Assembly (NCBI GenBank): GCA_001782825.1
Contig: MFPS01000007.1
Span: 148,487 to 212,486 of the forward strand
Direction: 5' to 3'
DNA from: Candidatus Magasanikbacteria bacterium RIFCSPHIGHO2_01_FULL_33_34
Lineage (GTDB): Bacteria > Patescibacteriota > Patescibacteriia > Magasanikbacterales > UBA922
Length of the DNA: 64,000 bases
Positions 5,969-27,600 of the stretch are shown here, piece by piece (within the stretch, counting starts at the first letter, position 1; each line of letters starts with the position of its first letter). The position numbers and the translations under genes are program-made. The notes below the pieces were generated by a model. That model was not told where the DNA came from and ran no database searches. It saw only the letters and a program-made list of their open reading frames with translations.

Positions 5969-6053
5969 AAAAAAATGATAAAAATATACTAATTAATCTA
6001 CAAATAGTGTACACTATTAATGACATTTAATCAATTTGATATAATGCGCAGAT

Positions 6054-6500
6054 ATGCCAGTCTATTCAGTAAACAAAAAAGCCAAATTTGACTTCGAGCT
6101 CTTGGAGACTTTTGAGGCTGGCTTGATATTGAATGGGATTGAAGTAAAATCAATTAGAAGTGGCCAAGCCAGCTTAAAAGGCGCTTTTGTAACTTTTCAT
6201 AACGAGGCTGCTTTTATTACAAATTTTCACATTCCAAAGTACAAATTTTCTGGTAAAGTAGAAAATTATGAACCAGAACGTAGCCGAAAACTCTTATTAA
6301 ATCGCAAAGAAATCAGTTATTTAAGAGGAAAATCACAAGAAAAGGGCTTGACAATTGTCCCTATTTCACTGTATACTAAAGGTCGTCATATAAAAGTAGA
6401 ATTAGCCGTAGCTAGAGGTAAGAAAAAATATGACAAAAGAGAAGCTATCAAGAAAAAAGACTTAAAGCGAGAGCTAAGTCACAAGATAAAAGAAGGATAG
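6054..6500 (+). CDS. smpB: SsrA-binding protein SmpB
   Basis: Full-length SmpB-like sequence (…LILNGIEVKSIRSGQASLKGAFV…); tmRNA gene immediately downstream. Confidence 0.9.
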   Translation: MPVYSVNKKAKFDFELLETFEAGLILNGIEVKSIRSGQASLKGAFVTFHNEAAFITNFHIPKYKFSGKVENYEPERSRKLLLNRKEISYLRGKSQEKGLTIVPISLYTKGRHIKVELAVARGKKKYDKREAIKKKDLKRELSHKIKEG

Positions 6501-6518
6501 TTGCACCTTACAATAAAT

Positions 6519-6926
6519 GGGGATGACAGGCTTCGATAGTCGGAGTCGTTATCTAAATGGGCATATCGAGCTTGCATATCTCGTAAAACTAGGCAAACTT
6601 TTACGTGCAAACGTATTAAGCCGTGCAAAGAACGCACTTGCTCGCGCATTTGCTGTTCCTTCATTGGCTCCTGTTGTTGCTTAAATTCAACAACCATCAC
6701 TCCCCTCATACTCGATAAGGGAATCGTGGTGTAAATCATCGAGCGTAAAAATATGTTCCTTCCGCGTGCATATTTTGACAATATAGCGGATATACCTTTA
6801 GGATAATTTTTGCTGTTTTTAATCTAAAGATTAAATCTCGTTTCGGCGAGACAAAAATCAGCTAATTATGTAGAACATTTATTTAACCCGATATAGACCC
6901 GAGTTCAATTCTCGGCATCTCCACCA
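6519..6926 (+). ncRNA. ssrA: tmRNA (ssrA)
   Basis: 5' GGGGATG pairs with 3' CATCTCC-A-CCA, including the G3·U70 wobble. T-arm cccgag/TTCAATT/ctcgg. Internal tag ORF ends …SLAPVVA-TAA. Canonical position after smpB. Confidence 0.85.
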
Positions 6927-7018
6927 AAAATGCAAACCAGTAAACTATGTTAAGCTAAATAGTCAGACCCGAGTTTCAGCCAAAGGCTAACATCTCCACT
7001 TAGTAATCAAATTCATTT

Positions 7019-7570
7019 ATGCGAATTTCACGCAAAAAAAGACCAGACAAACCACTCATACCTCATTACAACCTAAATGAGCGTATTAAGGTTGAAAAAC
7101 TTCGTCTTTTGGATGCTGAAGGAAAAAATATTGGTGTATTCTCCACTCCTGAAGCAATTGCGCTTGCCCAAGAACAAGAACTTGATTTGGTAGAAATTAA
7201 TCCAAAAGCTGATCCACCAGTTGCCAAATTAATTGATTTTGCCAAATTCAAATATCAAAAAGAAAAAGAAATACGAAAACAAAAAAGTAGTTCTCATGTA
7301 AGCGATATCAAAGGTGTACGATTGTCTATCAGAATTAGCGAACATGATATGAATATACGCTTAACCCAAGCCGTAAAATTTATTGAACGTGGAGATAAAG
7401 TCAAACCTGAAATACTCCTAAAAGGCAGAGAAAATGCTAGACCAGAGTTTGCCTTTGATGTCATCAAAAAATTCTTTACATTATTAAATGAAAAAATAAA
7501 AGTTAAATACGAACAAGATCCTACAAAACAAGGCAATAAAATTACTTCCATCATCATAAAACTGACTTAA
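7019..7570 (+). CDS. infC: Translation initiation factor IF-3
   Basis: IF3 N- and C-domain motifs (…INERIKVEKLRLLDAEGKNIGV…, …RLSIRISEHDMNIRLTQAVKFIERGDKVK…); true start may be a non-AUG codon nearby. Confidence 0.9.
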   Translation: MRISRKKRPDKPLIPHYNLNERIKVEKLRLLDAEGKNIGVFSTPEAIALAQEQELDLVEINPKADPPVAKLIDFAKFKYQKEKEIRKQKSSSHVSDIKGVRLSIRISEHDMNIRLTQAVKFIERGDKVKPEILLKGRENARPEFAFDVIKKFFTLLNEKIKVKYEQDPTKQGNKITSIIIKLT

Positions 7571-7667
7571 ACTAAATAAAAAATTTATTATCATTAAATC
7601 TTTTTTATTAACTTGACAAAAATCACATTATAGTATAGACTATCACCCATTGAATAATAATACATAT

Positions 7668-7874
7668 ATGCCAAAATTAAAAACACATAAAGCAACGGCT
7701 AAAAGATTTCAAATAAAAAAAAGTAAAAAAGGAATCACAATCCTAAAACGCAATGATGGACAAGACCATTTCAACTCTAGAGAAAGTGGTAAAACAAAAA
7801 GAAATAAAAAAACAGACAATACCATGTCTAGAACAATGAAAAAAACTATTCTAAGAGCAATGCCACATAATTAA
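7668..7874 (+). CDS. rpmI: Ribosomal protein L35
   Basis: MPKLKTHKATAKRFQIKKSKKG… matches bL35 N-terminus; start moved to the internal MPKLK codon of the track ORF. Confidence 0.8.
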   Translation: MPKLKTHKATAKRFQIKKSKKGITILKRNDGQDHFNSRESGKTKRNKKTDNTMSRTMKKTILRAMPHN

Positions 7875-7987
7875 CCAGTTCATAGCCAATAGTTCATAGC
7901 CAATAAATTCAATATAACGATTTTGGGTTAATGAACACAAAAATAACTTCTATTGGCTCCGAACTATAAACTAAGAACTATAATAAT

Positions 7988-8332
7988 ATGCCAAGAGTAA
8001 AAAGAGGCGTTGGACACGTCAAAAAAAGACGTAATCTGATGAAAAGAGTAAAAGGTTTTGAAGCTGGTAGAAAAAATCTTATCAAACTTGCAAAAACTGC
8101 TGACACAAAAGCTGGGGCTCACGCATTTAGAGACAGACGTCGTAAAAAAGGAGAATTTCGTCGTGTATGGCAAATACGAATAAACGCTGCTGTCCGTGAG
8201 TTTGGATTAAACTACAGTAAATTTATCGGTGGATTGAAAACCAAAAACATAAAATTAGACAGAAAAGTTCTAGCAGAAATCGCCGCAACAGAACCAAAAG
8301 TCTTCAAAAAAATCGTAGAACTTGTAAAATAA
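7988..8332 (+). CDS. rplT: Ribosomal protein L20
   Basis: MPRVKRGVGHVKKRRNLMKRVKGF…FRDRRRKK… is canonical bL20; infC-rpmI-rplT order conserved. Confidence 0.95.
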   Translation: MPRVKRGVGHVKKRRNLMKRVKGFEAGRKNLIKLAKTADTKAGAHAFRDRRRKKGEFRRVWQIRINAAVREFGLNYSKFIGGLKTKNIKLDRKVLAEIAATEPKVFKKIVELVK

Positions 8333-8340
8333 CTTAAATC

Positions 8341-8420
8341 AAGACCCTCAGAATGTTTGGCGGAAGCCGGAGCCCCCCCTCCTTGGCTCCAGTCGCTACT
8401 GCCGAACATTTTGAGGGTCT
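8341..8420 (+). terminator. Long imperfect hairpin (~22-bp outer stem) with nested GC-rich hairpin, immediately after rplT; candidate terminator or attenuator
   Basis: aagaccctcagaatgtttggcgg … ccgaacattttgagggtctt followed by a T-run; inner ggagccccccctccttggctcc. Confidence 0.5.
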
Positions 8421-8447
8421 TTTTTATTTTTACAAATTTACAATAAA

Positions 8448-8547
8448 ATTAAAATATGATTCATTCTGAACGGATTTGTTTGGCACAACAGCCAAACACC
8501 TCGGAGCCCAAGGCGATAATGAGTGAAGAATGAATCATATTTTAATT
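8448..8547 (+). repeat. Nested palindromic intergenic element, copy R2 (divergent subfamily C); core 8472-8522
   Basis: Arms aattaaaatatgattcattc / gaatgaatcatattttaatt. Core GGATTTGTTTGGCACAACAGCCAAACACCTCGGAGCCCAAGGCGATAATGA. Apical hairpin GTTTGGC/GCCAAAC carries compensatory changes relative to GGTTGCC/GGCAACC of subfamily B. Confidence 0.8.
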
Positions 8548-8580
8548 TGTTGTAACATACATGATATAATTGTAATCACT

Positions 8581-9057
8581 ATGTTAAGAAAATTTGTCCA
8601 AAAATTAAACTATAATAGAAGCAACAGCATAACCAAAATAAAATTCAAAATATCGCCTGAAGCTAAAAGACTAGCTAAAAAATTATTTGAAAATAAATCT
8701 GAAAAATATAGACAAAATATTGGTGATGAGTTATTGGATGAACTAGCTGATATGGCAAAAATCGATATTGTTAACCTCAAGATATCCGACAAAAATCAAT
8801 ATCACAAAAAAAGAAATGGACGAGTATCATCCAAACAATATGGTTATTACAAACCCGGTAGCAAATACATCTACATACACAATAGAACTGCTGTCAGAGG
8901 TCAAATATTAGCTAATAAGACCTTCCTAGACACACTTCTACACGAATGGATGCATCATTATGATTTCTGTAAATTACATTTAAACTCAATCCATACAGCT
9001 GGATTTTATGCCAGACTCAAAGATCTCAAAACAAAACTGGGCTGGCTAGAATTATAG
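8581..9057 (+). CDS. Hypothetical protein with SprT-like HExxH zinc-metallopeptidase-like motif (HEWMHH…H)
   Basis: Track ORF 8530-9057; its first 17 codons lie inside repeat R2, so start moved to MLRKF (8581); motif TLLHEWMHHYDFCKLHLNSIHTAGFY. Confidence 0.4.
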   Translation: MLRKFVQKLNYNRSNSITKIKFKISPEAKRLAKKLFENKSEKYRQNIGDELLDELADMAKIDIVNLKISDKNQYHKKRNGRVSSKQYGYYKPGSKYIYIHNRTAVRGQILANKTFLDTLLHEWMHHYDFCKLHLNSIHTAGFYARLKDLKTKLGWLEL

Positions 9058-9083
9058 CCAAAGTCTCTTTATTACAAACGGGG

Positions 9084-9112
9084 TTGACAACTATCCTAAA
9101 ATCTTGTATTAT
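9084..9112 (+). promoter_or_regulatory. Near-consensus sigma70-type promoter TTGACA-N17-TATTAT upstream of a 43-aa basic ORF and tRNA-Asp
   Basis: TTGACA at 9084-9089, 17-nt spacer, TATTAT at 9107-9112. Confidence 0.5.
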
Positions 9113-9276
9113 ATTGCTATTACTAATCAAATTATATGGGTGTAAGAAAAAAAAATAGAAACCTTTGGAAAGCTGAGCGCAAGGTACAAATCAAAAAAAT
9201 TAGTGCCAAACGTTTAAAAAAATCTCTAAAACTAAAGGCTAAAGAAAAAGCTACTGCTTAATGTAGTAGTTATTAC

Positions 9277-9351
9277 GGACCGGTAGTTCAACTGGTTAGA
9301 GCACTGCCCTGTCACGGCAGAAGTTGCGAGTTCGAGTCTCGTCCGGTCCGC
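9277..9351 (+). tRNA. tRNA-Asp (anticodon GTC)
   Basis: GGACCGG acceptor, D-arm TAGTTCAACTGGTTAGAGC, anticodon loop CTGTCAC, T-arm GCGAG/TTCGAGT/CTCGT; no encoded CCA. Confidence 0.9.
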
Positions 9352-9478
9352 AAAAATTAATTGATCTTCTGTTAAAAGTTAATTTTAAATTATTTATTTA
9401 TCAATACAAATAATCACTTTGCTCTTGTTTTTTATATATATTTATGATTTAATTGTTTTCAAGAAAGGATACTATCTG

Positions 9479-9970
9479 ATGAAAACTCGTAAAGAATCAA
9501 GTCTTGATAAATTCAGTCGTACTATGGACATGCACCATTGGGTTGGTGAAGAAGAGTGTCCAGTGTGCAAATACGACAAAAAAGGTACAACTCACCCAAT
9601 GACATGTAACGACTGTGGCATTCGTCGTACTGCCTGTGCTGAACAAAGTTGTTACCACTATTGGATCTATGACTGGCCAGATGGCACTCAAGAACTAATT
9701 CCACCATGCGGAAATAAACAACCAGACCCAAAAGTAGCAATGTTTGGCATTGTTCGAATCTGTGCCCATTGTAATCACTGTCTTGAAACTGACTACGAGG
9801 GAGGTACAGGTACCTGTCACTATCTAGCAATGGAACTAGCAAGAAAGCCACCCTCTAAACAACCTAGTAATCCTAACTACAGACGTGCCTTGGAGTTAAT
9901 AGCCGAAAGAACTATTCTTCACAAAAACGCTGGTACAAAAGAATATAAAGTTGTAATTCGAAAACTATAA
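9479..9970 (+). CDS. Cys-rich hypothetical protein (12 Cys; CPVC, CNDCG, CAHCNHC clusters), GC-elevated
   Basis: Track ORF 9419-9970; start at MKTRK (9479) has an AGGA ribosome-binding site 9 nt upstream; GC ~42% against a ~30% background. Confidence 0.5.
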   Translation: MKTRKESSLDKFSRTMDMHHWVGEEECPVCKYDKKGTTHPMTCNDCGIRRTACAEQSCYHYWIYDWPDGTQELIPPCGNKQPDPKVAMFGIVRICAHCNHCLETDYEGGTGTCHYLAMELARKPPSKQPSNPNYRRALELIAERTILHKNAGTKEYKVVIRKL

Positions 9971-10119
9971 TACAACCAAGGCACCTGCGAAGAATCTGTT
10001 CGCCTGCCTATTTTATTTCTGAACTATATTTGGAAATAAAATAAGGAGTATAATGCGAACAGTTTTTTTGTTTTTAAAATAAAACTATTAAAAACAAAAA
10101 ATCACCAAATATTTGATGA

Positions 10120-10162
10120 TTTTTTGTTTTTGCCTGTAGCTATTCAAAGCTACAGGCTTATT
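10120..10162. terminator. Bidirectional rho-independent terminator between convergent genes
   Basis: gcctgtagc-tattcaaa-gctacaggc with a U-run on both sides. Confidence 0.55.
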
Positions 10163-10184
10163 GGAATGAATATATTCCTCCTCA

Positions 10185-10586
10185 TTATTTATTGAAGTCT
10201 ACTACATGTTGATGTATGTCTTCTTCAGACTTTTTTTGAGAATTATCCTTATTATGTTTTCTTCGCTTCCCCTTGCCTTTTTCTAAACTAGGAAACATAC
10301 TATTTATCTTGGATTTAATCTCCTGTGCTTTATTACTCTCAACAAACACGTAAAAAATCTGAATATACTTATTACCCCTGACCTTTACCTCCAAACCAGA
10401 TCTAGTTTCATTGCAAATTACACTCCCCTGCGAAACTGATTTGATTGATGATATTATACCAATAGAAATTCCTTTGACACCATCAAGTGTCTTCAGAAAA
10501 TCTACCACTGGACCAGATGCATCAATGATGGTAGTATGTCTACCCCTGAACTTATCACCACTACGATGATTCTTCTTACTCATCAA
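10185..10586 (-). CDS. Hypothetical 133-aa protein, GC-elevated islet
   Basis: ORF track; 9 nt downstream of the 10596-11126 gene (2-gene operon); no motif recognised. Confidence 0.45.
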   Translation of the reverse strand: MMSKKNHRSGDKFRGRHTTIIDASGPVVDFLKTLDGVKGISIGIISSIKSVSQGSVICNETRSGLEVKVRGNKYIQIFYVFVESNKAQEIKSKINSMFPSLEKGKGKRRKHNKDNSQKKSEEDIHQHVVDFNK

Positions 10587-10595
10587 ACTACCCCT

Positions 10596-11126
10596 CTAGC
10601 GACGACTCAGTACTTCGTCCCAAGTAGACTCGTAGTAAGGACCCATGACATTTGATTCCCAAACAAGACCATACTTAGTCCAAAACTGAATTGATTCACT
10701 AAACTCATCCCTGTTATACCCAGGACGACTAAATGCAAAATTGGTAGGCTCTTTAGGAGTATTAGCTCCTACGTATCCAGTAATCAAAAACCACTGAATT
10801 CCACGTTTTACAGCAACTAGAGTAAACAATGAACTATTAAGCTTCACACCACCAACAACCACGTGTGTTGGCTTATCACGACCAATACGAACAGCAAAGG
10901 TATGTGGTCGATCTGGAAACCTTTCTACAAGTGAACTTTGGCCAATAATCTGACCAAAATTAATCTCACCTGCGTGAAATATTTTACCGTAAGGTAGCCT
11001 TGTTCTTTTAGCTGCCTCTTCGAGCAACCCTCCTGCTTCTGGATGAGCACGAAGATGTTCTACAGTATCATCATTAAGATGAATAATATTACCACACAAT
11101 GTTCTGAGTTCACGTGGAACAAGCAT
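10596..11126 (-). CDS. Hypothetical 176-aa protein, GC-elevated islet
   Basis: ORF track; strong GGAGG ribosome-binding site 7 nt before ATG; GC ~42%; no motif recognised. Confidence 0.5.
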   Translation of the reverse strand: MLVPRELRTLCGNIIHLNDDTVEHLRAHPEAGGLLEEAAKRTRLPYGKIFHAGEINFGQIIGQSSLVERFPDRPHTFAVRIGRDKPTHVVVGGVKLNSSLFTLVAVKRGIQWFLITGYVGANTPKEPTNFAFSRPGYNRDEFSESIQFWTKYGLVWESNVMGPYYESTWDEVLSRR

Positions 11127-11309
11127 GATATGCCTCCATTGAGCTTTTGAATGTCTATGGTTTTCGCCTTACTTATACTGACAAGGCTCATCAGTCCGTA
11201 ACTCTTACGGAGAACCATAAACTTTTAATTTTCTCAATATAAAAATATACTACAAAACTATACTTTTGTCAATAATGCCCAAAAACAAAAAGAGCGACCA
11301 ATTGCTCTT

Positions 11310-11666
11310 TTACTCCTTTCTATTTTTTGGAAAATCTTTTTCTGCTTGTTCAATAATAACTACAAATATTTCAAATTGTGCTTTAGTAAGTCCCTTTGCT
11401 TGAAGTATTTCCATATATGCTTCCATAAATTCAATAATTTTTTGCCTCAAAATTCTAAAATCTTTTTTTTCAACAATCTCACGAACTGAGATAAACCGTT
11501 TCTGAATACTTTCAATATCCTCCAATGATACTTTTTCACCATGCACCGAATCAACTATTGCTAATTCCAAAAGACTCTTAAACTCTACCAAACTTCCAAA
11601 CTTATTTAAAAGATCAACTATCTCACCTCTCAAAATATTCAAATTATGCGCAGAATTTTTTTCCAT
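11310..11666 (-). CDS. Hypothetical ~118-aa helical protein
   Basis: ORF track (start alternatives at 11687 or 11666); followed by hairpin terminator aagagcgaccaattgctctt. Confidence 0.4.
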   Translation of the reverse strand: MEKNSAHNLNILRGEIVDLLNKFGSLVEFKSLLELAIVDSVHGEKVSLEDIESIQKRFISVREIVEKKDFRILRQKIIEFMEAYMEILQAKGLTKAQFEIFVVIIEQAEKDFPKNRKE

Positions 11667-11723
11667 AAACACCCCTCCTTTACCCAAAGATATACTACAA
11701 TATCACCGCTGTCAACCAAAACA

Positions 11724-11748
11724 AAAGAGCGACTTCAAGTCGCTCATC
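11724..11748 (-). terminator. Rho-independent terminator of the 11752-12360 gene
   Basis: gagcgacttgaagtcgctc + TTTTGTTTT on minus strand. Confidence 0.5.
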
Positions 11749-11751
11749 CCA

Positions 11752-12360
11752 TTATTTGTCCCCATTTCTTTTGAATGGTATTATTTCTGCCAATTTTTTA
11801 TCTGAATCTATTTCTTTTTTTATTTCTACATCTCTTGAAAAAATTATTTTCAATTCAGTAGTATCAATTTCTGCAGAATCAACCGGATATTTGTGTTGCC
11901 TACTACCACATCCATAACCAGGTGTAGTCACCCAAACATCACTATGCTGATGAAAAGATCTTATAAAAATATGCTCCAAAACTAATAAATTTCGCATTCC
12001 TGAACGAATATCAATAGCTGGGTCACTATGATGTTCTTTGAAAAAATCGACCATATTAGAAACATCATCTCTATGAACAATATACAAATATTGAACCTTT
12101 TTAGTACCTTCTGAAAAATCAACTACCATCAAAACACAATACTTCAAATGATCCAGGCTAGAAACATTATATGTAGTCTCACAATGCCACTGAGGTATTT
12201 CTTTTTTTATTGGTTTTATTGATTTAGTAGGATATTTGTCATTTCCCTTTATTATTGGTTTAATGAAATCTTCAATAAACCACCCAAATACTACAATCCC
12301 CAACACCATCAAAGGTATCAAAAAATAATCAGCATAATTCATAATACCCTCCTTATACAC
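11752..12360 (-). CDS. N-terminally membrane-anchored hypothetical protein (several His/Asp clusters)
   Basis: ORF track; TM FLIPLMVLGIVVFGWFI; no confident family. Confidence 0.45.
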   Translation of the reverse strand: MYKEGIMNYADYFLIPLMVLGIVVFGWFIEDFIKPIIKGNDKYPTKSIKPIKKEIPQWHCETTYNVSSLDHLKYCVLMVVDFSEGTKKVQYLYIVHRDDVSNMVDFFKEHHSDPAIDIRSGMRNLLVLEHIFIRSFHQHSDVWVTTPGYGCGSRQHKYPVDSAEIDTTELKIIFSRDVEIKKEIDSDKKLAEIIPFKRNGDK

Positions 12361-12389
12361 ACTAAATCACTAAAATATTATCTTGTCAA

Positions 12390-12420
12390 CCAAAAAAGCA
12401 GTTCATCAAACTGCTTTTAA
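12390..12420 (-). terminator. Rho-independent terminator of ppsA
   Basis: aaaagcagtttgatgaactgctttttt on minus strand directly after the stop. Confidence 0.55.
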
Positions 12421-12421
12421 T

Positions 12422-15400
12422 TTATTCTAAATCATCTGAATCACATACTTCCCAATACTGCGGTACATCACATGGCGTCGCAAAGGCTTCACATTCACTA
12501 TCTTTATTTTTTCTGGCATAAGCAATCATTTGTATGCAAACTTTTTTATCACGCACATCCCAATGATTTAATTCTCTATCTGGCAAAGCATTCTCATCAT
12601 CGGACTCAAAACTGAAACTTTCTAACATTCTTACAAATTTTTCAGAATTACTATTTATTTCCAAAATTGATCCGTCATCCATTTCAACTTCAACCACACT
12701 TATTTTGGCATCATTATCAGAAAATAAAACTTCATATGAAAATGCTGGCATATTATCAAGTTTTATACTTTGTTTGTCTAATTGTCTGACTGGATGATCA
12801 ACCAATTGCATAAATACACTTACATACTCACCAGTTTCTGAATTTTTGGCAGATACGCCATTTTTCCAATGTTCTACTGACCAAGTTGATGGATAATCCA
12901 TTGAAAATTTTGCAAATGAACTTTCACTCAATTTGCTCATTTTGTTTTCAAATTCTTCTTCTTTGGCTTCAAGCGCTCTTAGATTGTCTTCTCTGGCTTG
13001 TGCAGTGAATTTTTCTCTCAATTCAACTGGACTGATCTCACTCATTTTACTATCAAGTACTTTATTGTAGCCAGTTACATCAGTACAGCCAGCACCCAGA
13101 CTAATCAAACCAGCGCCCATAATACCTACCAAAACTACAATCCCAAGATGTTTTTTGCTAGTTTTACTACCAGTTTTACCAAGAGTTTTTTCTGTATAAG
13201 CTATCTTTTCTCGAGCAGACACAACTGTATCAGGATTCAAGGATATACTATCAATTCCCTCGCGTACCAAAAATTCTGCAAATTCTGGATAATCACTCGG
13301 TGCTTGTCCACAAATACCAATTTTTTTCTTGTATTTGTGAGCAACATGAATAACATTTCTAATCAAAGATTTTACAGCCTCATCATTTTCATTATATACA
13401 TGACTTACCAAAGCTGAATCTCTGTCAACTCCAAGTGTCAACTGAGTTAAATCATTGGATCCAATACTAAAACCATCAAAAATTTTGGCAAATTCTTCTG
13501 CCAAAATTACATTGGCAGGAATCTCGCACATCACATATACTTGCAAACCATTTTCGCCTTGCTTTAAACCAAATTCTGCCATAGTATTCAAAACTTTTTT
13601 ACCTTCTTCTGGAGTGCGACAAAACGGAACCATAGTAATTACATTGTCTAATCCCCATTCATCTCTTACTTTTTTGATTGCTTCACATTCCAACTTGAAA
13701 GCTGGTTTATATTCTTTTGAATAATAACGACTTGCTCCTCGCCAACCAATCATTGGATTTTGTTCTTTTGGTTCAAATTCTGTACCCCCAACCAAAGTAG
13801 CATATTCATTGGTTTTAAAATCACTAAATCTAATAATTACATCATTTGGATAAGCTGATGCCGCAATTCTACCTATTCCTTCAGCCAACTTGTCTACACA
13901 ATAATCAGTCTTTTTTTTGTATGCACGGGTAATACTAGCTATTTTCTTTTTAGCGACTTTGTCTTTTAATTTATTAAAATGAACTAAAGCAAGTGGATGA
14001 ATACGAATAAAATTTGTAAAAATAAATTCCTCTCGAGCAAGCCCAACACCATCATTTGGCAAAAATGACATAGCAAAAGCATTGTCCGGATCACCTACAT
14101 TCATCATTATTTTAGTTTTTGTCTTTTTTATATTTTTTATTTCAATTTTTTTAACCTCAAAAGGTAAAATTGTATTATATATATGACCTTCATCACCCTC
14201 AGCACAGCTGACAGTCACTGATTGATTATTTTTTAATAATTTTCTTACATTTGAGGCGCCTACAATTGCTGGTACACCTAACTCACGCGATACAATAGCC
14301 GCATGAGAAGTTTTACCACCTTGTTCAGTTACAATTGCAGAAGCAATACGCATAATCGGCTCCCAATCTGGATCAGTTATTCTAGTGACCAAAATTTCAC
14401 CTTTCTTAAATTTATTCATGTCTTTTGGATCTTCAATAATCCTCACTTTACCAGTACCAATTTTCTGACCAACACCAATACCAGTTGCAAGTAATTTACC
14501 TTTTTTCTTTAAAATATATTCCTCTACTACTGCATGATTTGATCTAGCTTTGACAGTTTCGGGTCGTGCCTGCACAATAAATAATTTTCCTGTCTGACCA
14601 TCCTTGGCCCACTCCAAATCTTGTGGCTTGCCATAATGTTCAGCAATTTGTACTGCCCATTTAGACAATTGAATAATTTCTTTGTCTGATATACAAAATT
14701 TATTTCTATCAGCTAACTTTACATTTTCTTGTATAGTACCTCCACCACTTTTTTTGTATACCAATTTTACATCCTTTGTACCCACTATCCGACTAATAAT
14801 AGACGCTTTACCTTTTTTTAAACCTTCTTTAAAAATATAAAATTGATCTGGTGTTACTCTACCTTTTACAACATATTCACCCAAACCATACGAAGCAGTT
14901 AATAATACCACCCCATCAAATCCAGACTCCGTATCTAATGAAAACATTACACCACTAGTAGCCAAATCCGATCGTACCATTTCTTGGACAGCTACAGACA
15001 ATGCCACATTCAAATGATCATAACCATGACCTTCACGATAAGAAATAGCTCTATTTGTAAACAAAGAGGCCACACAATCTTTAACTGCTTTCAATAACTG
15101 TTTGTTACCCACTACATTCAAATAAGTCTCTTGTTGACCAGCAAAACTAGCATCTGGCAAATCCTCTGCAGTAGCACTAGATCGTACAGCCACAGCTACT
15201 CCTGTTTTAGTATTTCCAGATAATTTTTTGTAAGCTTCCAATATTTCCTTCTCAATTTCTTTGGGGAATGTCGCTTCCAAAATCATTTCACGCACTTTTT
15301 TACCTACTCTTTCCAATTCTACTACATTTGTAACATCCAACCCTTTGATAGCAGTTTTTATATTCTTATCCAGACCTGTGCTTTTCAAAAAACTCCAATA

Positions 15401-15580
15401 GGCTGAACTAGTCAAGGCATATCCATTGGGAATACTCACACCCTTTGACGTCAGTTTTGAATACATTTCTCCCAAAGATGCATTTTTGCCACCAACAAGA
15501 GGCACATCTTTTATAGATATTTCATCAAACCAAAGAATATTTTTCTCTGTTCTTTTTTGAGTATTATTTTTAACTACCAT
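12422..15580 (-). CDS. ppsA: Phosphoenolpyruvate synthase (PEP-utilising enzyme family) fused to a C-terminal transmembrane helix plus ~240-aa extra domain
   Basis: N-terminal PPDK/PpsA ATP-grasp region, central phospho-His motif (GGKTSHAAIVSRELGVPAIVG), C-terminal PEP-binding TIM barrel (…GSNDLTQLTLGVDRDS…). Then HLGIVVLVGIMGAGLISLGAG (TM) and an acidic 240-aa tail. Confidence 0.85.
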   Translation of the reverse strand: MVVKNNTQKRTEKNILWFDEISIKDVPLVGGKNASLGEMYSKLTSKGVSIPNGYALTSSAYWSFLKSTGLDKNIKTAIKGLDVTNVVELERVGKKVREMILEATFPKEIEKEILEAYKKLSGNTKTGVAVAVRSSATAEDLPDASFAGQQETYLNVVGNKQLLKAVKDCVASLFTNRAISYREGHGYDHLNVALSVAVQEMVRSDLATSGVMFSLDTESGFDGVVLLTASYGLGEYVVKGRVTPDQFYIFKEGLKKGKASIISRIVGTKDVKLVYKKSGGGTIQENVKLADRNKFCISDKEIIQLSKWAVQIAEHYGKPQDLEWAKDGQTGKLFIVQARPETVKARSNHAVVEEYILKKKGKLLATGIGVGQKIGTGKVRIIEDPKDMNKFKKGEILVTRITDPDWEPIMRIASAIVTEQGGKTSHAAIVSRELGVPAIVGASNVRKLLKNNQSVTVSCAEGDEGHIYNTILPFEVKKIEIKNIKKTKTKIMMNVGDPDNAFAMSFLPNDGVGLAREEFIFTNFIRIHPLALVHFNKLKDKVAKKKIASITRAYKKKTDYCVDKLAEGIGRIAASAYPNDVIIRFSDFKTNEYATLVGGTEFEPKEQNPMIGWRGASRYYSKEYKPAFKLECEAIKKVRDEWGLDNVITMVPFCRTPEEGKKVLNTMAEFGLKQGENGLQVYVMCEIPANVILAEEFAKIFDGFSIGSNDLTQLTLGVDRDSALVSHVYNENDEAVKSLIRNVIHVAHKYKKKIGICGQAPSDYPEFAEFLVREGIDSISLNPDTVVSAREKIAYTEKTLGKTGSKTSKKHLGIVVLVGIMGAGLISLGAGCTDVTGYNKVLDSKMSEISPVELREKFTAQAREDNLRALEAKEEEFENKMSKLSESSFAKFSMDYPSTWSVEHWKNGVSAKNSETGEYVSVFMQLVDHPVRQLDKQSIKLDNMPAFSYEVLFSDNDAKISVVEVEMDDGSILEINSNSEKFVRMLESFSFESDDENALPDRELNHWDVRDKKVCIQMIAYARKNKDSECEAFATPCDVPQYWEVCDSDDLE

Positions 15581-24074: not shown

Positions 24075-24638
24075 TCAAATCTTTCCTGAACCTAAAGGGT
24101 TATATCCATTAGTAATTTCATAACCATCCGAAAAGCCATCCCCATCTGTATCAGATTTAGTCGGGTCAGTTTTATATTCTTCCACTTCTAATTTATCCGA
24201 TATACCATCCCAATCAGTATCAAATTCTGTATTACTTATACCTAATCTTTCTTCTTCAATATCCAAAACACCATCATTATCCAAATCATCATCTTCCAAT
24301 CTCAAAGAGGTAACTCCTATATTTTGTTTTTGTACTTTTTCAATTGGCTTTTTAACTTCCACTTCTACGCTCGTATCCTCTGTCTCACTTATTTTTTTAA
24401 TATCTTTTTTTACAAAAATATTAGTAAAAAAAATTAAATATACTAATATACTTATCAAAATAATGATACCACTAATAATCAAAATCATTTTAAATTTTGA
24501 TTTTCTTTGTGGATAGTCAAGTTCATTGCTATATACATTTTGATCCACTATTTTATTGTCATCTTGATATTCATTCATCTTATATTTAATTAAATTATTA
24601 TAAATATTATGGTTCAATATATGGCGGATCAACCACAT
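24075..24638 (-). CDS. Single-pass membrane protein with TSP3-like Ca-binding repeats ending NGYNPLGSG
   Basis: TM MILIISGIIILISILVYLIFF; DDDLDNDGVLDIEEE…TDWDGISD…SDTDGDGFSDGYEITNGYNPLGSGKI; start overlaps the giant gene's 3' end by 32 nt. Confidence 0.5.
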   Translation of the reverse strand: MWLIRHILNHNIYNNLIKYKMNEYQDDNKIVDQNVYSNELDYPQRKSKFKMILIISGIIILISILVYLIFFTNIFVKKDIKKISETEDTSVEVEVKKPIEKVQKQNIGVTSLRLEDDDLDNDGVLDIEEERLGISNTEFDTDWDGISDKLEVEEYKTDPTKSDTDGDGFSDGYEITNGYNPLGSGKI

Positions 24639-27600
24639 CTATTACACAACGACAGTCTACATTACAAGTTTCAAGCGCATAACAACCAGCATTTGATCCA
24701 TCACATTCTTCACCTGGTGGTTGTATAATTCCATCACCACAATAAGCTGGTGGAAGTATAATCAAAGGCCCACATTCACAATTTGAATAACACTCTTCAA
24801 AGAAACCACAATTTAATGAACTACCATCACATTCCTCATTTGCTTCTCTACTACCATTACCACACACTGCATAGCCATCACAAGTATTAAGACAATTATT
24901 TTGACCTGGAATTGCTGGATCACATATCTCACTTCCATCAATCCTACCATCACCACAAATAGACAATTCACCAATAACTCCACCCGTCTGAATCTGTTCA
25001 GCACTAGTAGCAATTCTATTTAACGGCAATATCTCATAATCACCAGAAGTTGCATCTCTATCTATATTAAACAAATGCCAATATCTCGCTGCAGGATTTG
25101 AACTCTTTAGAGCATCTTCTATAACATAAGTAATATCTGGTCTAAATACAGTCCGGAAAGATTCTGCTCCGGCTGGAGTTTCTCTATATTCATAAACATA
25201 AACTTCCAAATCACTATCATCAAAATATGCCATCGGTACCCCACCGGCCACACTTTGTGCTTCTACAAATACTGCATACGGCCCATAATTCAATAAAGAA
25301 TTTGGCGCAGTATTGAGTGGTATATTTATGGTCATTGATTGTATAAAAGTATCTTCACCCTCATTGATATCATGCATATAAAAACCTTCATTACCAAGCC
25401 CCAATGGCCAAACTGTACAACTTCTGGTTGTATTTGCAAAATTATAGTCAGGAATCCAATAACCACCAACCAGTTCTGTACCGATACAGATCTGTTTTGG
25501 TGTTGCCATATTTCTTTGCATAAACCTATCAGTTCCACCCAAAGTATCATCAGCTGACAAAATACCTAAACCAAAATCTGTACCACCAAATTCTTGTGAT
25601 TCTTCTCTTGTCCATTTAAGCACAACCCTAATTTGTCCTTCTGGTAAAGCAGGAGAAACAATAAAATCATTCACAACAGTATTTAATTCATTATTAACAT
25701 CATAACTATATACAAATTCTGATTCTGGTGATGTTTCTAGACAATTTTCAGTTCCAGCTTGAGGTGTCAAACACATATAATAACTACCATTACAAGCATT
25801 GTCAGCGATAATGCCATTCAATATATCTGTTTCACCCCATGGATAAAATATATTACTAGGTACATACATAACATCAACCAAATCAGGTCCTGCATAAAAT
25901 TGCACTCTATTATTTACAAGAAGTGAACTACCACTATTAGTCAAAAAATATGGTCCATTAGGCTCTGTATAATCTCTAAAATAAAACTTTGCAAACAATC
26001 CATTAGGGTCTGTACCCCATTGCCCACCAGAATAATGCAAACTAATCATCGGATTTAATATTCTCAAACTAGGATCAATGCCACCGCTTGTTAGTCTCTT
26101 ACTTCCACACTGTATACAATTATTATATAAAAATCCACAACTATTTCTACACTCATAATTACCAGTCAAAGTAGTATAAGTCCCATTCTCTAAAGAATAA
26201 TTACCACTTCGTCTGCTACATTGATCTAATTCAAATGTGCCAGAATTTGTCACAATATAAGGATTTGGACAATTTGCACCAACACAATTAGGTCTAACAT
26301 ACTCACAAACCTCAGTTCTAGAACAAAAATTATCAACACAATACCCAGAATTACAATCTGTGTTAGCAGTACAATAACCAAGTGGTTGACAAAAACCTGC
26401 TGGGCTACAATAATTAGAATCACAATCAGCCACTTGAGTAGCAACAGTACACGGATCATTAATATTTCCACTACCACCATAATCTACCAATGAAATAACA
26501 TCAATATTCTCATTACCACAATAAGCATTTGGTTCAATATAAAGTACCTCTCTACAATCCCATGAACAAAAGTTACAGCCTTGGTTGTAACCAGGGACAC
26601 ACTGGACACCATTTATACCATCACCTCTATCACATACTTCACCAGCATCAATATTACTATTACCACAATTACCTAAATCAGGCGTAACATTATCTACAGG
26701 CGCAGAAGCTTCATTTCTACAATTATTTGCACAACCATCTCCGCTAATATTGTTACCATCATCACATTCTTCGGCTGAAGTACATACTCCTGCACTACAA
26801 TTATTTGAAAAACATTGACTATTATTTAAGCAGATTGCACCACTATTACCAGTATGCAAAATTCCATCACCACAACGAGGACCTAATTGTTTACAATTTG
26901 CTGAACAACTATTAGAAGGTAGAGCAAATGTTGGTGGTGTTAAATATGCACCATTGTTAGCTCCTATATCACAATATTCAACTGGTGAACAAACATTCAT
27001 AGCCAAACAATTTCTATTTGTTCCACAACTTGTAACACAAGCATTAGGATTACCGGTACAATTTACATTATTAAATGCGCAATAACTATTTACAACATTA
27101 TCACCACAAAAACTGGCACTAAAAGTACACATAGCCGAACAATTTCCAGGTGTACCATTTAATGCCCCATCATCACATTGTTCTAATCCATCTACCCTAC
27201 CATTACCACACAAAATATCAACATCACAGCCACTATCCTGCCAATTACACGAACTATTACAAACTCTAGCTAAAGTACCCGAAATAGGTACACCATTCAC
27301 ATCTACTGCACAAGCATTTAATGTGTCAACCAATTGGCCAGGAGGATCACACTGTTCAGTACCATTTACAATCCCATTACCACAAGAACCAGACAAAGGT
27401 GATTCTGTACTTCCAGACACACCACACATAGAACCAATCTGAAAATGACTAACATCTATAAATGAACCCAAATCAGACAATCCAAAATATTCTGGACGCC
27501 CATAAATCATATAATCATTTGCTACATCAGGTCTATACTCTAATACTGATGAAACTGCTGGACAAATAAATCTACTATTCACTTCATCCCAACAGGTCTG

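What the first reader, a model, noticed from the sequence alone, without database searches (positions are those of the whole stretch)
9352..11300. GC-elevated ~2-kb islet of three unknown proteins directly downstream of tRNA-Asp
The region immediately 3' of tRNA-Asp has visibly higher GC (~40-45% against a ~30% background). It encodes a 12-Cys protein (9479-9970) and a convergent two-gene operon (10596-11126 then 10185-10586) with no recognisable domains. That operon has a strong GGAGG ribosome-binding site, unusual here. A perfect palindrome TCCGTAA-ctc-TTACGGA (11187-11203) lies in its promoter region and is a candidate operator. tRNA 3' ends are classic integration sites, so this looks like a remnant of a horizontally acquired cassette, possibly a toxin/antitoxin or defence pair. 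No integrase is present.
Basis: partly seen in the sequence, partly recalled or inferred. Interest (0 to 1): 0.55.

Follow-up and report, generated by a model that had tools for sequence, protein, structure and literature searches.

The report
Hammerhead ribozyme in a variable gene islet
The "operator palindrome" is very probably one stem of a self-cleaving hammerhead ribozyme at the start of the mRNA of a widespread, uncharacterised phage-associated gene, which sits in a small variable gene islet next to tRNA-Asp in a Candidate Phyla Radiation bacterium.

Summary
The window comes from a Candidatus Magasanikbacteria genome.

**Observation: partly right**
- tRNA-Asp, the three ORFs and the GGAGG site exist.
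- GC is only modestly raised: 36.4% against 33.0%, with two ORFs at 41%.
- The palindrome lies at 11195-11211, not 11187-11203.
- orfA has 11 Cys, not 12.

**Interpretation: partly right**
- The interval from tRNA-Asp to the PEP-synthase gene really is variable. A related species holds different genes there.
- The islet is larger than reported, 9352-12420. Its five consecutive orphan genes are the only 5 of 52 genes in the window with Shine-Dalgarno motifs.
- There is no integrase and no tRNA repeat.
- The toxin/antitoxin or defence idea has no support here. orfC never accompanies orfB homologues, and one strain variant carries a frameshifted orfC.

**Main result**
- The palindrome is stem I of a complete type III hammerhead ribozyme (11222-11153, minus strand), between the promoter and the ribosome-binding site of orfB.
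- A second hammerhead precedes a 43%-identical orfB homologue in an unrelated MAG. Eight of 20 pairs show compensatory changes.
- A twister-like element precedes a third homologue.
- orfB belongs to a large unannotated family (phrog_23674, including jumbo phage GAP32 gp368) that is often near tRNA genes.

Self-cleavage has not been tested.

The parts
9277..9351 (+). tRNA-Asp (GTC), left boundary of the variable islet
   Evidence: ARAGORN; Rfam tRNA 65 bits. A nearly identical tRNA-Asp lies at the same place in the related locus L040.
9479..9970 (+). orfA: 163-aa orphan protein with 11 Cys (CxxC pairs, probably zinc ribbons) and a weak SD (AAGGA)
   Evidence: The only hit in 5.8 billion proteins is itself. 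No family hits. GC 41%, GC3 0.30.
10090..10131 (.). 21-nt-arm inverted repeat between the convergent orfA and orfC, probably a bidirectional terminator
10185..10583 (-). orfC: 132-aa orphan protein with a Lys-rich tail, 12 nt downstream of orfB with its own GAGGGG SD
   Evidence: No homologue other than itself. Absent next to all orfB homologues. A 25-bp deletion (10476-10500) occurs in strain contig L008. Poorest codon-usage fit among real ORFs.
10596..11126 (-). orfB: 176-aa member of a large unannotated family (phrog_23674; GAP32 gp368)
   Evidence: phrog_23674 at E 1.8e-8; 113 of 114 family members match it. 617 cluster representatives at E<=1e-3. AF2 pLDDT 95.7 with a 114-sequence alignment. 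The only structural neighbour is 4FBD, a T. gondii hypothetical protein.
11133..11137 (-). Shine-Dalgarno GGAGG of orfB, 6 nt before the ATG
   Evidence: TGGAGG-type SD sites recur before most orfB homologues.
11153..11222 (-). Type III hammerhead ribozyme. Stem III is 11222-11213 with 11162-11153. The predicted cleavage is after C11212. CUGAUGA is 11194-11188, the stem II hairpin is 11187-11166, and GAAA is 11165-11162.
   Evidence: Rfam RF00008: 35.5 bits over the full model, E 7.2e-5 in 7 kb and 2.1e-6 in 201 nt. The MFE fold is exactly the three-way junction, at -23.2 kcal/mol and z -3.9. A covarying homologue exists in L020.
11244..11272 (-). Sigma-70-like promoter of orfB-orfC (TTGACA-17-TATATT). 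The predicted start is about 25 nt before the cleavage site.
   Evidence: 11 of 12 matches.
11288..11311 (-). Terminator-like hairpin after the upstream gene up118
11310..11666 (-). up118: 118-aa orphan protein with a strong SD (AGGAGGGG) and its own promoter. Proposed to belong to the same islet.
   Evidence: No family hits. Absent from the related locus L040.
11752..12342 (-). up196: 196-aa orphan protein with a strong SD (AAGGAGGG). Proposed right-hand gene of the islet.
   Evidence: No family hits. Absent from the related locus L040.
12394..12418 (.). Hairpin after the PEP-synthase/PPDK-like gene (12422-15580), right boundary of the islet
   Evidence: The PPS gene is annotated through Pfam.

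Best explanation
The interval between tRNA-Asp and the PEP-synthase-like gene (about 9352-12420) is a small variable islet of five orphan genes in a Candidatus Magasanikbacteria genome. Each gene has a Shine-Dalgarno site, which the rest of the genome lacks. Most have their own sigma-70-like promoter and terminator.

Within the islet, orfB-orfC is transcribed from the promoter at 11272-11244.

Inferred mechanism:
- The RNA cuts itself after C11212. This removes the roughly 25-nt 5'-triphosphate leader and any read-through from the upstream gene.
- The remaining orfB-orfC mRNA starts with a 5'-OH and a compact folded 5' end, 30 nt before the start codon.
- That would set the stability and translation of the message independently of its neighbours.

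orfB itself belongs to a large, patchily distributed, phage-associated family of unknown function (phrog_23674).
- Its members are often found beside tRNA genes.
- They are sometimes preceded by self-cleaving ribozymes.
- They are occasionally fused to a P-loop polynucleotide-kinase-like domain or a HAD-phosphatase-like domain.
- My best guess, with low confidence, is an RNA-directed or tRNA-directed activity used in phage-host conflict.

orfA, orfC, up118 and up196 are species-specific passengers.

Shown: the sequence and structure of the ribozyme, its position, its covarying counterpart, the variability of the islet, and the distribution of the family. Inferred: cleavage activity, its effect on the mRNA, and any biochemical role of orfB.
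For: Hammerhead:
- The Rfam Hammerhead_3 match covers the full model with every core nucleotide present: CUGAUGA, GAAA, A15.1-U16.1 and C17. All pairs next to the core are Watson-Crick.
- These are the acceptance rules used by Perreault et al. 2011 (PMC3088659).
- The MFE fold is exactly the three-way junction, z -3.9.
- It is the only such element in 64 kb when every position is scored.
- A model built from it alone finds one significant hit in 63 kb of homologue loci: L020 3799-3866, at 26.5 bits and E 7.5e-6. That hit lies about 125 nt upstream of a 43%-identical orfB homologue. It shares the GAG loop I and GUAUA in loop II.
- Its MFE fold is also the hammerhead.
- Eight of 20 pairs changed on both sides and 97% of cells are paired. 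Slid controls give 0-1.
- A twister-P1-like element (37 bits, E 2.3e-6 in 801 nt) lies about 390 nt upstream of a third homologue.
- The literature reports that bacterial hammerheads and twisters share unexplained gene associations near phage-like genes (PMC6765202; PMC8782182).

Islet:
- SD motifs occur only in the five consecutive genes.
- The related species L040 has different content in the same interval.
- orfA and orfC have no homologues.
- Composition is modestly atypical.

Family:
- Its size, alignment and PHROG membership come; its phage members.
- tRNA genes lie within 1.5 kb in 6 of about 17 independent contexts.
Against: - The Rfam score (35.5) is below the gathering threshold (48.5). 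The whole-window Rfam scan did not list the element.
- The L020 element scores only 16.8 bits with Rfam, has a 4-bp stem III, and folds no better than shuffled sequence.
- Covariation rests on two sequences, in an alignment fitted to the model.
- All strain copies are identical, so there is no within-species test.
- Most orfB homologues (about 14 of 17 contexts), including the syntenic one in L040, have no detectable ribozyme. The association is a minority feature.
- No loop-loop tertiary contact could be identified.
- up118 and up196 have ordinary GC and codon usage. Their membership of a foreign islet rests on SD use and on their absence from one relative.
- An orfB-family gene is present at the same locus in the relative, which could also mean old vertical residence with fast divergence.
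- The function of orfB is not established. The only structural match is an uncharacterised protein. The fusions are single cases, and the HAD match is below Pfam's cut-off.
Confidence: 0.7

Rival explanations
1. The palindrome is a protein-binding operator that represses the orfB-orfC operon. The surrounding hammerhead-like sequence is coincidental.
For: A perfect 7-3-7 palindrome is rare here (0.1 expected by chance). It lies between the promoter and the start codon.
Against: - It lies about 26-42 nt downstream of the predicted start, not over the -35/-10 boxes.
- No DNA-binding domain is detectable in any islet protein.
- The palindrome is flanked in exact register by all the other hammerhead elements.
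- In L020 the equivalent hairpin has a different sequence but the same position and the same GAG loop. That is expected for an RNA stem and not for a conserved operator.
Confidence: 0.06
2. orfB-orfC is a toxin/antitoxin, toxin/immunity or two-gene defence module acquired horizontally.
For: - The pair consists of two small, tightly linked, co-transcribed genes.
- orfB-family genes are patchy and compositionally foreign.
- Single family members give weak hits to RNase-toxin families: DUF4258 at 6e-4 and RNAse_A_bac at 1e-3.
- One HAD-orfB fusion sits 4 nt after a CBASS/Pycsar-type TIR effector-like gene.
Against: - Neither protein hits PADLOC, or any Pfam or NCBIfam toxin or antitoxin family.
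- orfC has no homologue at all and is never next to an orfB homologue. Most homologues are stand-alone genes.
- A strain contig has orfC frameshifted beside an intact orfB. That should be lethal if orfC neutralised a toxin.
- The weak toxin-family hits are at chance level once the roughly 130 proteins scanned are taken into account.
Confidence: 0.12
3. The hammerhead-like element is a chance or decayed motif with no catalytic activity, and the region is just an ordinary 5' UTR hairpin.
For: The Rfam score is below threshold. The element is not listed in the whole-window scan. The L020 counterpart is weak by Rfam and thermodynamically unremarkable. Inactive hammerhead-like sequences are known (PMC3088659).
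Against: - All 11 or more core positions and all three stems are intact.
- E is 7e-5 even against 4227 families in 7 kb.
- Orientation and placement relative to the promoter, SD and gene are right.
- A second instance with 8 compensatory pairs lies upstream of a homologous gene in a different phylum-level lineage.
Confidence: 0.12
4. The genes are ordinary, vertically inherited, fast-evolving CPR orphan genes. The interval is not horizontally acquired, and the GC and SD features reflect expression or amino-acid composition.
For: - An orfB-family gene occupies the same interval and orientation in the related species.
- orfB GC3 is normal. up118 and up196 have native-like GC and codon usage.
- There is no integrase or att repeat.
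- The islet is fixed and nearly invariant in all population contigs.
Against: - Syntenic orfB homologues are only 32% identical while the flanks are 78% identical. Non-syntenic homologues in other organisms are closer, at 43-48%.
- All the other islet genes differ between the two species.
- SD use is confined to the islet.
- The family includes jumbo-phage genes.
Confidence: 0.15

Closest known systems
Type III hammerhead ribozyme (Rfam RF00008), including the bacterial and prophage hammerheads of Perreault et al. 2011 (PMC3088659)
   Same: Identical catalytic core. Three helices, with stems I and II capped and stem III open. Intergenic position, in the same orientation as the adjacent gene and next to a phage-associated gene of unknown function. 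It would process a transcript into a gene-length mRNA.
   Different: - It scores below Rfam's gathering threshold.
- Its host is a CPR bacterium.
- It sits at the very 5' end of a promoter-proximal transcript rather than between genes of a long prophage operon.
- Loop I is a GAG triloop, and no recognisable loop-loop pseudoknot was found.
- Activity is untested.
Shared, unexplained gene associations of bacterial hammerhead and twister ribozymes (Roth 2014 and Weinberg 2015, as summarised in PMC6765202)
   Same: Members of one protein family (orfB/phrog_23674) are preceded by a hammerhead in two lineages and by a twister-like element in a third.
   Different: I could not read the original lists of associated genes, so I cannot say whether this family is among them. 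Only 3 of about 17 contexts carry a ribozyme.
tRNA-adjacent genomic islands (integrase-mediated insertion at a tRNA 3' end)
   Same: Located directly 3' of a tRNA gene, with variable content between related species, atypical translation signals and modestly atypical composition.
   Different: It has no integrase and no direct repeat of the tRNA 3' end, and it is very small (about 3 kb). One gene family recurs at the locus in both species.
glmS ribozyme (self-cleaving RNA in a 5' UTR)
   Same: A self-cleaving RNA between a promoter and the start codon whose cleavage leaves a 5'-OH mRNA.
   Different: It belongs to a different ribozyme class. There is no evidence of a ligand. For glmS, cleavage destabilises the mRNA; here the direction of the effect is unknown.
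Cronobacter phage GAP32 gp368 and homologues in Serratia phage BF, Pectobacterium phage CBB and Yersinia phage fHe-Yen9-04 (phrog_23674); PDB 4FBD
   Same: They belong to the same protein family as orfB (25-29% identity; tblastn E down to 3e-8). 4FBD is the only structural neighbour (Foldseek E 1.5e-3, TM 0.45).
   Different: All are annotated as hypothetical. The phage genes follow tRNA-Trp directly and have no ribozyme. The window's copy departs from the family consensus at several conserved positions (R88 to H, A153 to G; by eye also D129 to N and H152 to Y).

Membership tests
Hammerhead ribozyme (type III) | Conserved catalytic core: C3 U4 G5 A6 N7 G8 A9, G12 A13 A14, the A15.1-U16.1 pair, and H17 at the cleavage site | tested here: met
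   CUGAUGA at 11194-11188, GAAA at 11165-11162, UC at 11213-11212. cmscan alignment; sequence check.
Hammerhead ribozyme (type III) | Three helices around the core with standard pairs next to it; stems I and II capped, stem III open | tested here: met
   Stem III has 7-10 bp, stem I 7 bp and stem II 6 bp. 10.1-11.1 is G-C and 1.1-2.1 is U-A. These meet the criteria quoted from PMC3088659.
Hammerhead ribozyme (type III) | Score at or above Rfam's gathering threshold for RF00008 | tested here: not met
   35.5 bits against 48.5. E is nevertheless 7.2e-5 for 7 kb against 4227 families.
Hammerhead ribozyme (type III) | Helices supported by compensatory changes in homologues | tested here: inconclusive
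   Eight of 20 pairs changed on both sides between the window and L020, with slid controls at 0-1. There are only two sequences, and the alignment was fitted to the model.
Hammerhead ribozyme (type III) | Tertiary contact between loops or bulges of stems I and II | tested here: inconclusive
   Both copies share a GAG loop I and GUAUA in loop II. No complementary pseudoknot is evident by eye.
Hammerhead ribozyme (type III) | Site-specific self-cleavage giving 2',3'-cyclic phosphate and 5'-OH ends | not testable with these tools
   This needs in vitro transcription or end-mapping.
tRNA-targeted integrative island | Integrase or recombinase gene | tested here: not met
   No such domain in any of the five islet proteins.
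tRNA-targeted integrative island | Direct repeat of the tRNA 3' end at the far boundary | tested here: not met
   No 19-mer match at up to 3 mismatches in the window. No exact match of 11 nt or more, and no 16-mer at up to 3 mismatches, in 9400-14000.
tRNA-targeted integrative island | Content differs between related genomes while the flanks are conserved | tested here: met
   L040/L041 against the window. Only one relative was available.
Type II toxin-antitoxin or toxin-immunity pair | Homology to known toxin or antitoxin families | tested here: not met
   No hits in Pfam, NCBIfam or PADLOC. Only chance-level hits in other family members.
Type II toxin-antitoxin or toxin-immunity pair | The two genes stay together across homologues | tested here: not met
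   orfC has no homologue. No orfC-like ORF lies near any orfB homologue.
Known anti-phage defence systems (PADLOC-DB 2.0) | Proteins match the models of a described system | tested here: not met
   No hits for any of the six proteins scanned. A TIR-effector neighbour was found only for a distant HAD-orfB fusion in another organism.
Promoter operator | Palindrome overlaps the promoter, and a cognate DNA-binding regulator is encoded nearby | tested here: not met
   The palindrome lies downstream of the -10 box, within the transcribed leader. No DNA-binding domain was detected.

The most novel reading that the evidence does not exclude
The orfB/phrog_23674 family may be one of the long-unexplained 'ribozyme-associated' gene classes. 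It may encode a new kind of RNA-end or tRNA-directed enzyme or sensor, acting for example on 2',3'-cyclic-phosphate and 5'-OH ends. Several observations would fit this reading:
- the genes sit beside tRNA genes in jumbo phages and in cellular islets;
- hammerhead or twister ribozymes precede some of them;
- rare members are fused to a polynucleotide-kinase-like P-loop domain or a HAD-phosphatase-like domain;
- one member is paired with a TIR effector.

On this reading, the ribozyme and the protein would be two parts of one RNA-based conflict module.
Probability: 0.12. Interest if true: 0.8.

Novelty: new member of a known kind. Interest (0 to 1): 0.55.

Why it matters
- Apart from glmS, the biological role of bacterial self-cleaving ribozymes is still unknown. 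So is the reason why hammerhead and twister ribozymes share gene neighbours (PMC6765202).
- This locus gives a clean, minimal case: one promoter, one hammerhead at the very 5' end, one SD and one conserved gene.
- It also names a specific, widespread and structurally well-predicted protein family that recurs behind two or three ribozyme classes and beside tRNA genes. That makes the association testable.
- Shine-Dalgarno sites mark foreign genes in an otherwise SD-less CPR genome. This may be a cheap indicator of acquired DNA in such lineages.
- For annotation, a feature that would be filed as an operator is an RNA element that Rfam's default thresholds miss.

Tried and rejected
- PDB 8OF7 gave a weak sequence hit and is labelled 'Rhs family protein'. 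It is an AbyU-like [4+2] cyclase (PMC10946715), so I rejected it as chance.
- AF2 with a 2-sequence alignment gave pLDDT 43 and was unusable. Repeating it with 114 sequences gave pLDDT 95.7.
- A profile search of PDB sequences found nothing significant.
- The plasmid collection holds no orfB homologue.
- The genome contigs and metagenome-contig scans returned only 1 and 4 loci.
- A subtype-specific hammerhead pattern in IMG/VR gave one hit, inside a coding region with no stem I. I judged it chance.
- The model R1 found no further hammerheads in about 110 kb of homologue loci.
- Strain contigs gave no presence/absence polymorphism of the islet, only small deletions.
- A search for tRNA-Asp att-like repeats was negative.
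- Roth 2014 and Weinberg 2015 are not held in the library. I could not check their lists of ribozyme-associated genes.
- The weak Rfam hits psRNA14, MicX and Corona_pk3 in the region were dismissed as chance.
Full report
**Source and observation**

The window matches Candidatus Magasanikbacteria bacterium RIFCSPHIGHO2_01_F (GCA_001782875.1, contig MFPW01000009.1). This is a CPR bacterium with about 33% GC.

- tRNA-Asp(GTC) lies at 9277-9351.
- The ORFs are as described: orfA at 9479-9970 (+), orfB at 10596-11126 (-) and orfC at 10185-10583 (-).
- orfB has a GGAGG site 6 nt before its ATG.

Several details need correcting:
- The palindrome TCCGTAA-CTC-TTACGGA lies at 11195-11211, not 11187-11203.
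- orfA has 11 Cys, not 12.
- The GC elevation is modest:
  - The stated interval is 36.4% GC against 33.0% for the window, and about 9% of equal-sized windows reach that.
  - orfA and orfB are 41%, orfC is 35%, and local peaks reach 44%.
- Gene by gene:
  - orfB is about 2 sd high in GC but ordinary in GC3.
  - orfA and orfC have raised GC3.
  - orfC has the worst synonymous-codon fit of any real ORF in the window.

**The Shine-Dalgarno signal**

The remark about the ribosome-binding site turned out to be the best marker of compositional foreignness. Of 52 genes in the window, 47 have AT-rich upstreams with no SD. The five that have one are consecutive:

| Gene | SD motif |
|---|---|
| orfA | AAGGA |
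| orfC | GAGGGG |
| orfB | GGAGG |
| up118 (11310-11666) | AGGAGGGG |
| up196 (11752-12342) | AAGGAGGG |

None of the five has a Pfam, NCBIfam or PADLOC match. I therefore place the islet between tRNA-Asp and the terminator of the PEP-synthase-like gene. That is about 9352-12420: five genes, not three.

**Is it a variable islet?**

Every metagenome contig carrying identical orfB or identical L20 belongs to one population and is 99.5-100% identical across 9000-11800. So there is no strain-level presence/absence. Two small variants exist:
- a 41-bp deletion after orfA (L005);
- a 25-bp frameshifting deletion inside orfC with orfB intact (L008).

A related species was found through an orfB-family member (P0012; loci L040 and L041).
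- Its flanks are close to the window's. The SprT-like protein is 78% identical, the 41-aa sORF 79%, the end of PPS 74%, and tRNA-Asp is nearly identical.
- Its tRNA-Asp/PPS interval holds a 720-aa protein, a deaminase-like fragment, a 349-aa protein and an orfB homologue in the same orientation.
- orfA, orfC, up118 and up196 are absent there.
- The two syntenic orfB proteins are only 32% identical. The window's orfB is 43-48% identical to homologues in other contexts and organisms.

Other points bear on acquisition:
- Every orfB homologue examined is richer in GC than its flanks.
- Most carry a TGGAGG-type SD.
- There is no integrase.
- There is no repeat of the tRNA 3' end.

So 'variable, probably acquired islet at a tRNA' is supported. 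'Integrase-type island remnant' is not demonstrated.

**The palindrome is stem I of a hammerhead ribozyme**

A relaxed Rfam scan of 6000-13000 reported Hammerhead_3 (RF00008) at 11219-11156 on the minus strand. The match covers the full model at 35.5 bits. E is 7.2e-5 there, and 2.1e-6 when only 201 nt are searched.

Read 5' to 3' on the minus strand, the element is UAUGGUU-C / UCCGUAA-GAG-UUACGGA / CUGAUGA / GCCUUG-(10 nt)-UAAGGC / GAA / AACCAUA.
- Stem III has 7 bp, extendable to 10.
- The cleavage-site C is at 11212.
- The invariant CUGAUGA and GAAA are present.
- The core-adjacent pairs are standard: A15.1-U16.1, U1.1-A2.1 and G10.1-C11.1.
- These are the acceptance criteria used in the reference survey of hammerheads (PMC3088659).

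Supporting observations:
- The unconstrained MFE fold of 11225-11150 is exactly this three-way junction, at -23.2 kcal/mol and z = -3.9.
- A sigma-70-like promoter (TTGACA 11272-11267, 17 nt, TATATT 11249-11244; 11 of 12 matches) places the transcription start about 25 nt before the cleavage site.
- The ribozyme ends 18 nt before the SD.

Caveats: the score is below Rfam's gathering threshold (48.5). The whole-window scan, with its stricter filters, did not list the element.

**Independent support from a homologue**

A simple core-motif scan, and then a covariance model built from the window element alone (R1), were run over homologue loci.
- With every position scored, R1 found one significant hit in 63 kb: L020 3799-3866, at 26.5 bits and E 7.5e-6.
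- That hit lies between an upstream gene and a 43%-identical orfB homologue, inside a GC-rich two-gene insert in a lower-GC MAG labelled Gammaproteobacteria.
- It has the full core, an 8-bp stem I with the same GAG triloop, a stem II whose loop shares GUAUA, and a 4-bp stem III. Its MFE fold is again the hammerhead.
- Between the two copies, 8 of 20 pairs changed on both sides and 97% of cells are paired. Slid-partner controls give 0-1.

Weaknesses:
- There are only two sequences, and the alignment was model-fitted.
- Rfam gives the L020 copy just 16.8 bits.
- Its fold is no more stable than shuffled sequence.

In a third context, the 99-kb viral contig L012, a twister-P1-like element lies about 390 nt upstream of the homologue. 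It scores 37.1 bits (GA 67.2), with E 2.3e-6 in 801 nt. It carries GGUCCCAAGCCC and GAGGGA, and a tRNA-like fragment lies between it and the gene.

The remaining contexts, about 14 of 17 and including the syntenic L040, show no ribozyme. A subtype-specific pattern search of IMG/VR gave only a chance hit.

The pattern fits the published but unexplained observation that bacterial hammerheads and twisters share gene neighbourhoods near phage-like genes (PMC6765202; PMC8782182). It is a minority feature of this family.

**What orfB is**

- A word-indexed search found only orfB itself and one 46% homologue.
- An exhaustive profile search found 617 cluster representatives at E<=1e-3, 199 of them at 1e-10 or better. 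Most are 165-200 aa.
- 113 of 114 aligned members match phrog_23674, a family of unknown function.
- None has a meaningful Pfam hit.
- Annotated homologues are hypothetical proteins of about 355-380-kb jumbo phages: GAP32, Serratia BF, Pectobacterium CBB, Yersinia fHe-Yen9-04 and the Erwinia pEa_SNUABM phages. Homologues also occur in Pseudomonas Otagovirus phages. None occurs on plasmids.
- With the 114-sequence alignment, AlphaFold gives pLDDT 95.7.
- Foldseek finds only PDB 4FBD, a Toxoplasma 'conserved hypothetical protein' (E 1.5e-3, TM 0.45). The sequence profile also touches it weakly. BFVD gives nothing.

Contextual clues:
- A tRNA gene lies within 1.5 kb in 6 of about 17 independent contexts, plus a tRNA-like fragment in L012.
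  - The six are the window, L040, the GAP32 lineage (directly after tRNA-Trp), phage Astolliot, L021 (after a six-tRNA array) and L037.
  - With a generous base rate of 10-15%, this is suggestive: P is about 0.001-0.008 for 6 of 13, and somewhat weaker for 6 of 17.
- One member is fused to a C-terminal AAA_33/KTI12-type P-loop kinase (E 2.4e-22).
- One member is fused to an N-terminal HAD-like hydrolase, with a match below Pfam's cut-off.
- Two members are tandem duplications.
- The HAD fusion lies 4 nt after a CBASS/Pycsar-type TIR effector-like gene.

The window's copy departs from the alignment consensus at two positions that are nearly invariant in the family: R88 to H and A153 to G. By eye it also departs at D129 (to N) and H152 (to Y).

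I read these clues as pointing, weakly, to an RNA-directed or tRNA-directed role in phage-host conflict. That is inference, not a result.

**The toxin/antitoxin or defence-pair idea**

- orfC is a real-looking gene. It has its own SD and sits 12 nt after orfB.
- It has no homologue in 5.8 billion proteins.
- No ORF near any orfB homologue resembles orfA, orfC, up118 or up196.
- Most homologues are stand-alone genes.
- The L008 variant carries a frameshifted orfC with an intact orfB.
- PADLOC is silent on all of these proteins.

I therefore give this reading low weight for this locus.

**Mechanism proposed**

Transcription from the promoter at 11272-11244 yields an RNA whose 5' end folds into the hammerhead.
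- Self-cleavage after C11212 releases a roughly 25-nt 5'-triphosphate fragment with a 2',3'-cyclic phosphate.
- The orfB-orfC mRNA is left with a 5'-OH and with stems I and II as a 5' cap-like structure, 30 nt before the ATG.
- The same cut would sever any read-through from up118.

Established knowledge suggests a changed mRNA lifetime. Bacterial 5'-end-dependent decay prefers 5'-monophosphate, and glmS cleavage changes mRNA fate. The direction of the effect here is unknown.

Shown: the sequence, the fold, the placement and the covarying counterpart. Inferred: catalysis and its consequence.

**Verdict**

- The 'acquired islet at a tRNA' idea is partly supported and the islet is enlarged.
- The 'operator' is reinterpreted as a hammerhead ribozyme that Rfam's thresholds miss.
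- The TA/defence idea is not supported.
- The ribozyme is a new member of a known kind.
- The link to a defined, widespread, unannotated protein family near tRNAs is the part worth following up.

Noticed in passing
window 1-64000 (gene starts): 47 of 52 genes have AT-rich upstream regions with no Shine-Dalgarno motif. The only five with one are the consecutive islet genes. SD presence may mark acquired genes in this CPR lineage.
   Followed up: partly
window 9136-9261 (+), promoter 9084-9112: A 41-aa Lys/Arg-rich small ORF lies directly upstream of tRNA-Asp and is apparently co-transcribed with it. It is 79% identical in the related species (L040 4969-5094), so it is probably a real small basic protein of unknown function.
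   Followed up: partly
L012 3530-3613 and 3904-3949: A twister-P1-like element (37 bits, below GA 67) and a tRNA-like T-arm/acceptor fragment lie upstream of an orfB homologue. They follow a MoxR-ATPase plus vWA gene pair in a 99-kb viral contig.
   Followed up: partly
L043 4034-6389: A 320-aa protein with a CBASS/Pycsar-type TIR effector domain (PADLOC E 6e-35) is followed, 4 nt later, by a HAD-like/orfB-domain fusion (P0087). seryl-tRNA synthetase lies next. This is a possible two-gene conflict module.
   Followed up: no
L042 231-1376 (P0106): An orfB-family domain is fused to a C-terminal AAA_33/KTI12-type P-loop kinase domain (E 2.4e-22).
   Followed up: no
L020 3889-3945: A long, nearly perfect hairpin (acatagggttggatattcat...atgaatatccaaccctatgt) lies between the L020 hammerhead and the start codon of the orfB homologue. 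Its function is unknown.
   Followed up: no
window 10476-10500 and 9973-10013: Two population variants exist: a 25-bp deletion that frameshifts orfC (contig L008) and a 41-bp deletion just after orfA (contig L005). Several metagenome contigs also end inside orfA or the orfA-orfC spacer, which hints at local heterogeneity or assembly trouble.
   Followed up: partly
window 6054-6926: smpB (6054-6500) is followed immediately by the tmRNA gene (6519-6926, 118 bits). ORFs listed on both strands over the tmRNA are spurious.
   Followed up: no
window 8530-9057 (+): A 158-175-aa protein with an HEWMHH motif gives weak SprT/WLM/M76 zincin hits (E 0.01-0.4). It is conserved at 78% in the related species.
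   Followed up: no
window 24607-35106 (-): A single ORF of 3499 aa, a giant protein of the kind often seen in CPR genomes. It was not examined.
   Followed up: no
L037 1-445: An orfB homologue (P0009) is preceded by a tRNA and by a 23S-rRNA-intervening-sequence-type protein gene (PF05635).
   Followed up: no
window 11241-11255 / 11686-11700 and 11283-11298 / 11718-11733: The promoter (-10 region TTGTAGTATAT) and terminator sequences of orfB and of the neighbouring gene up118 are near-duplicates of each other. This suggests that the islet genes share a common regulatory cassette.
   Followed up: no
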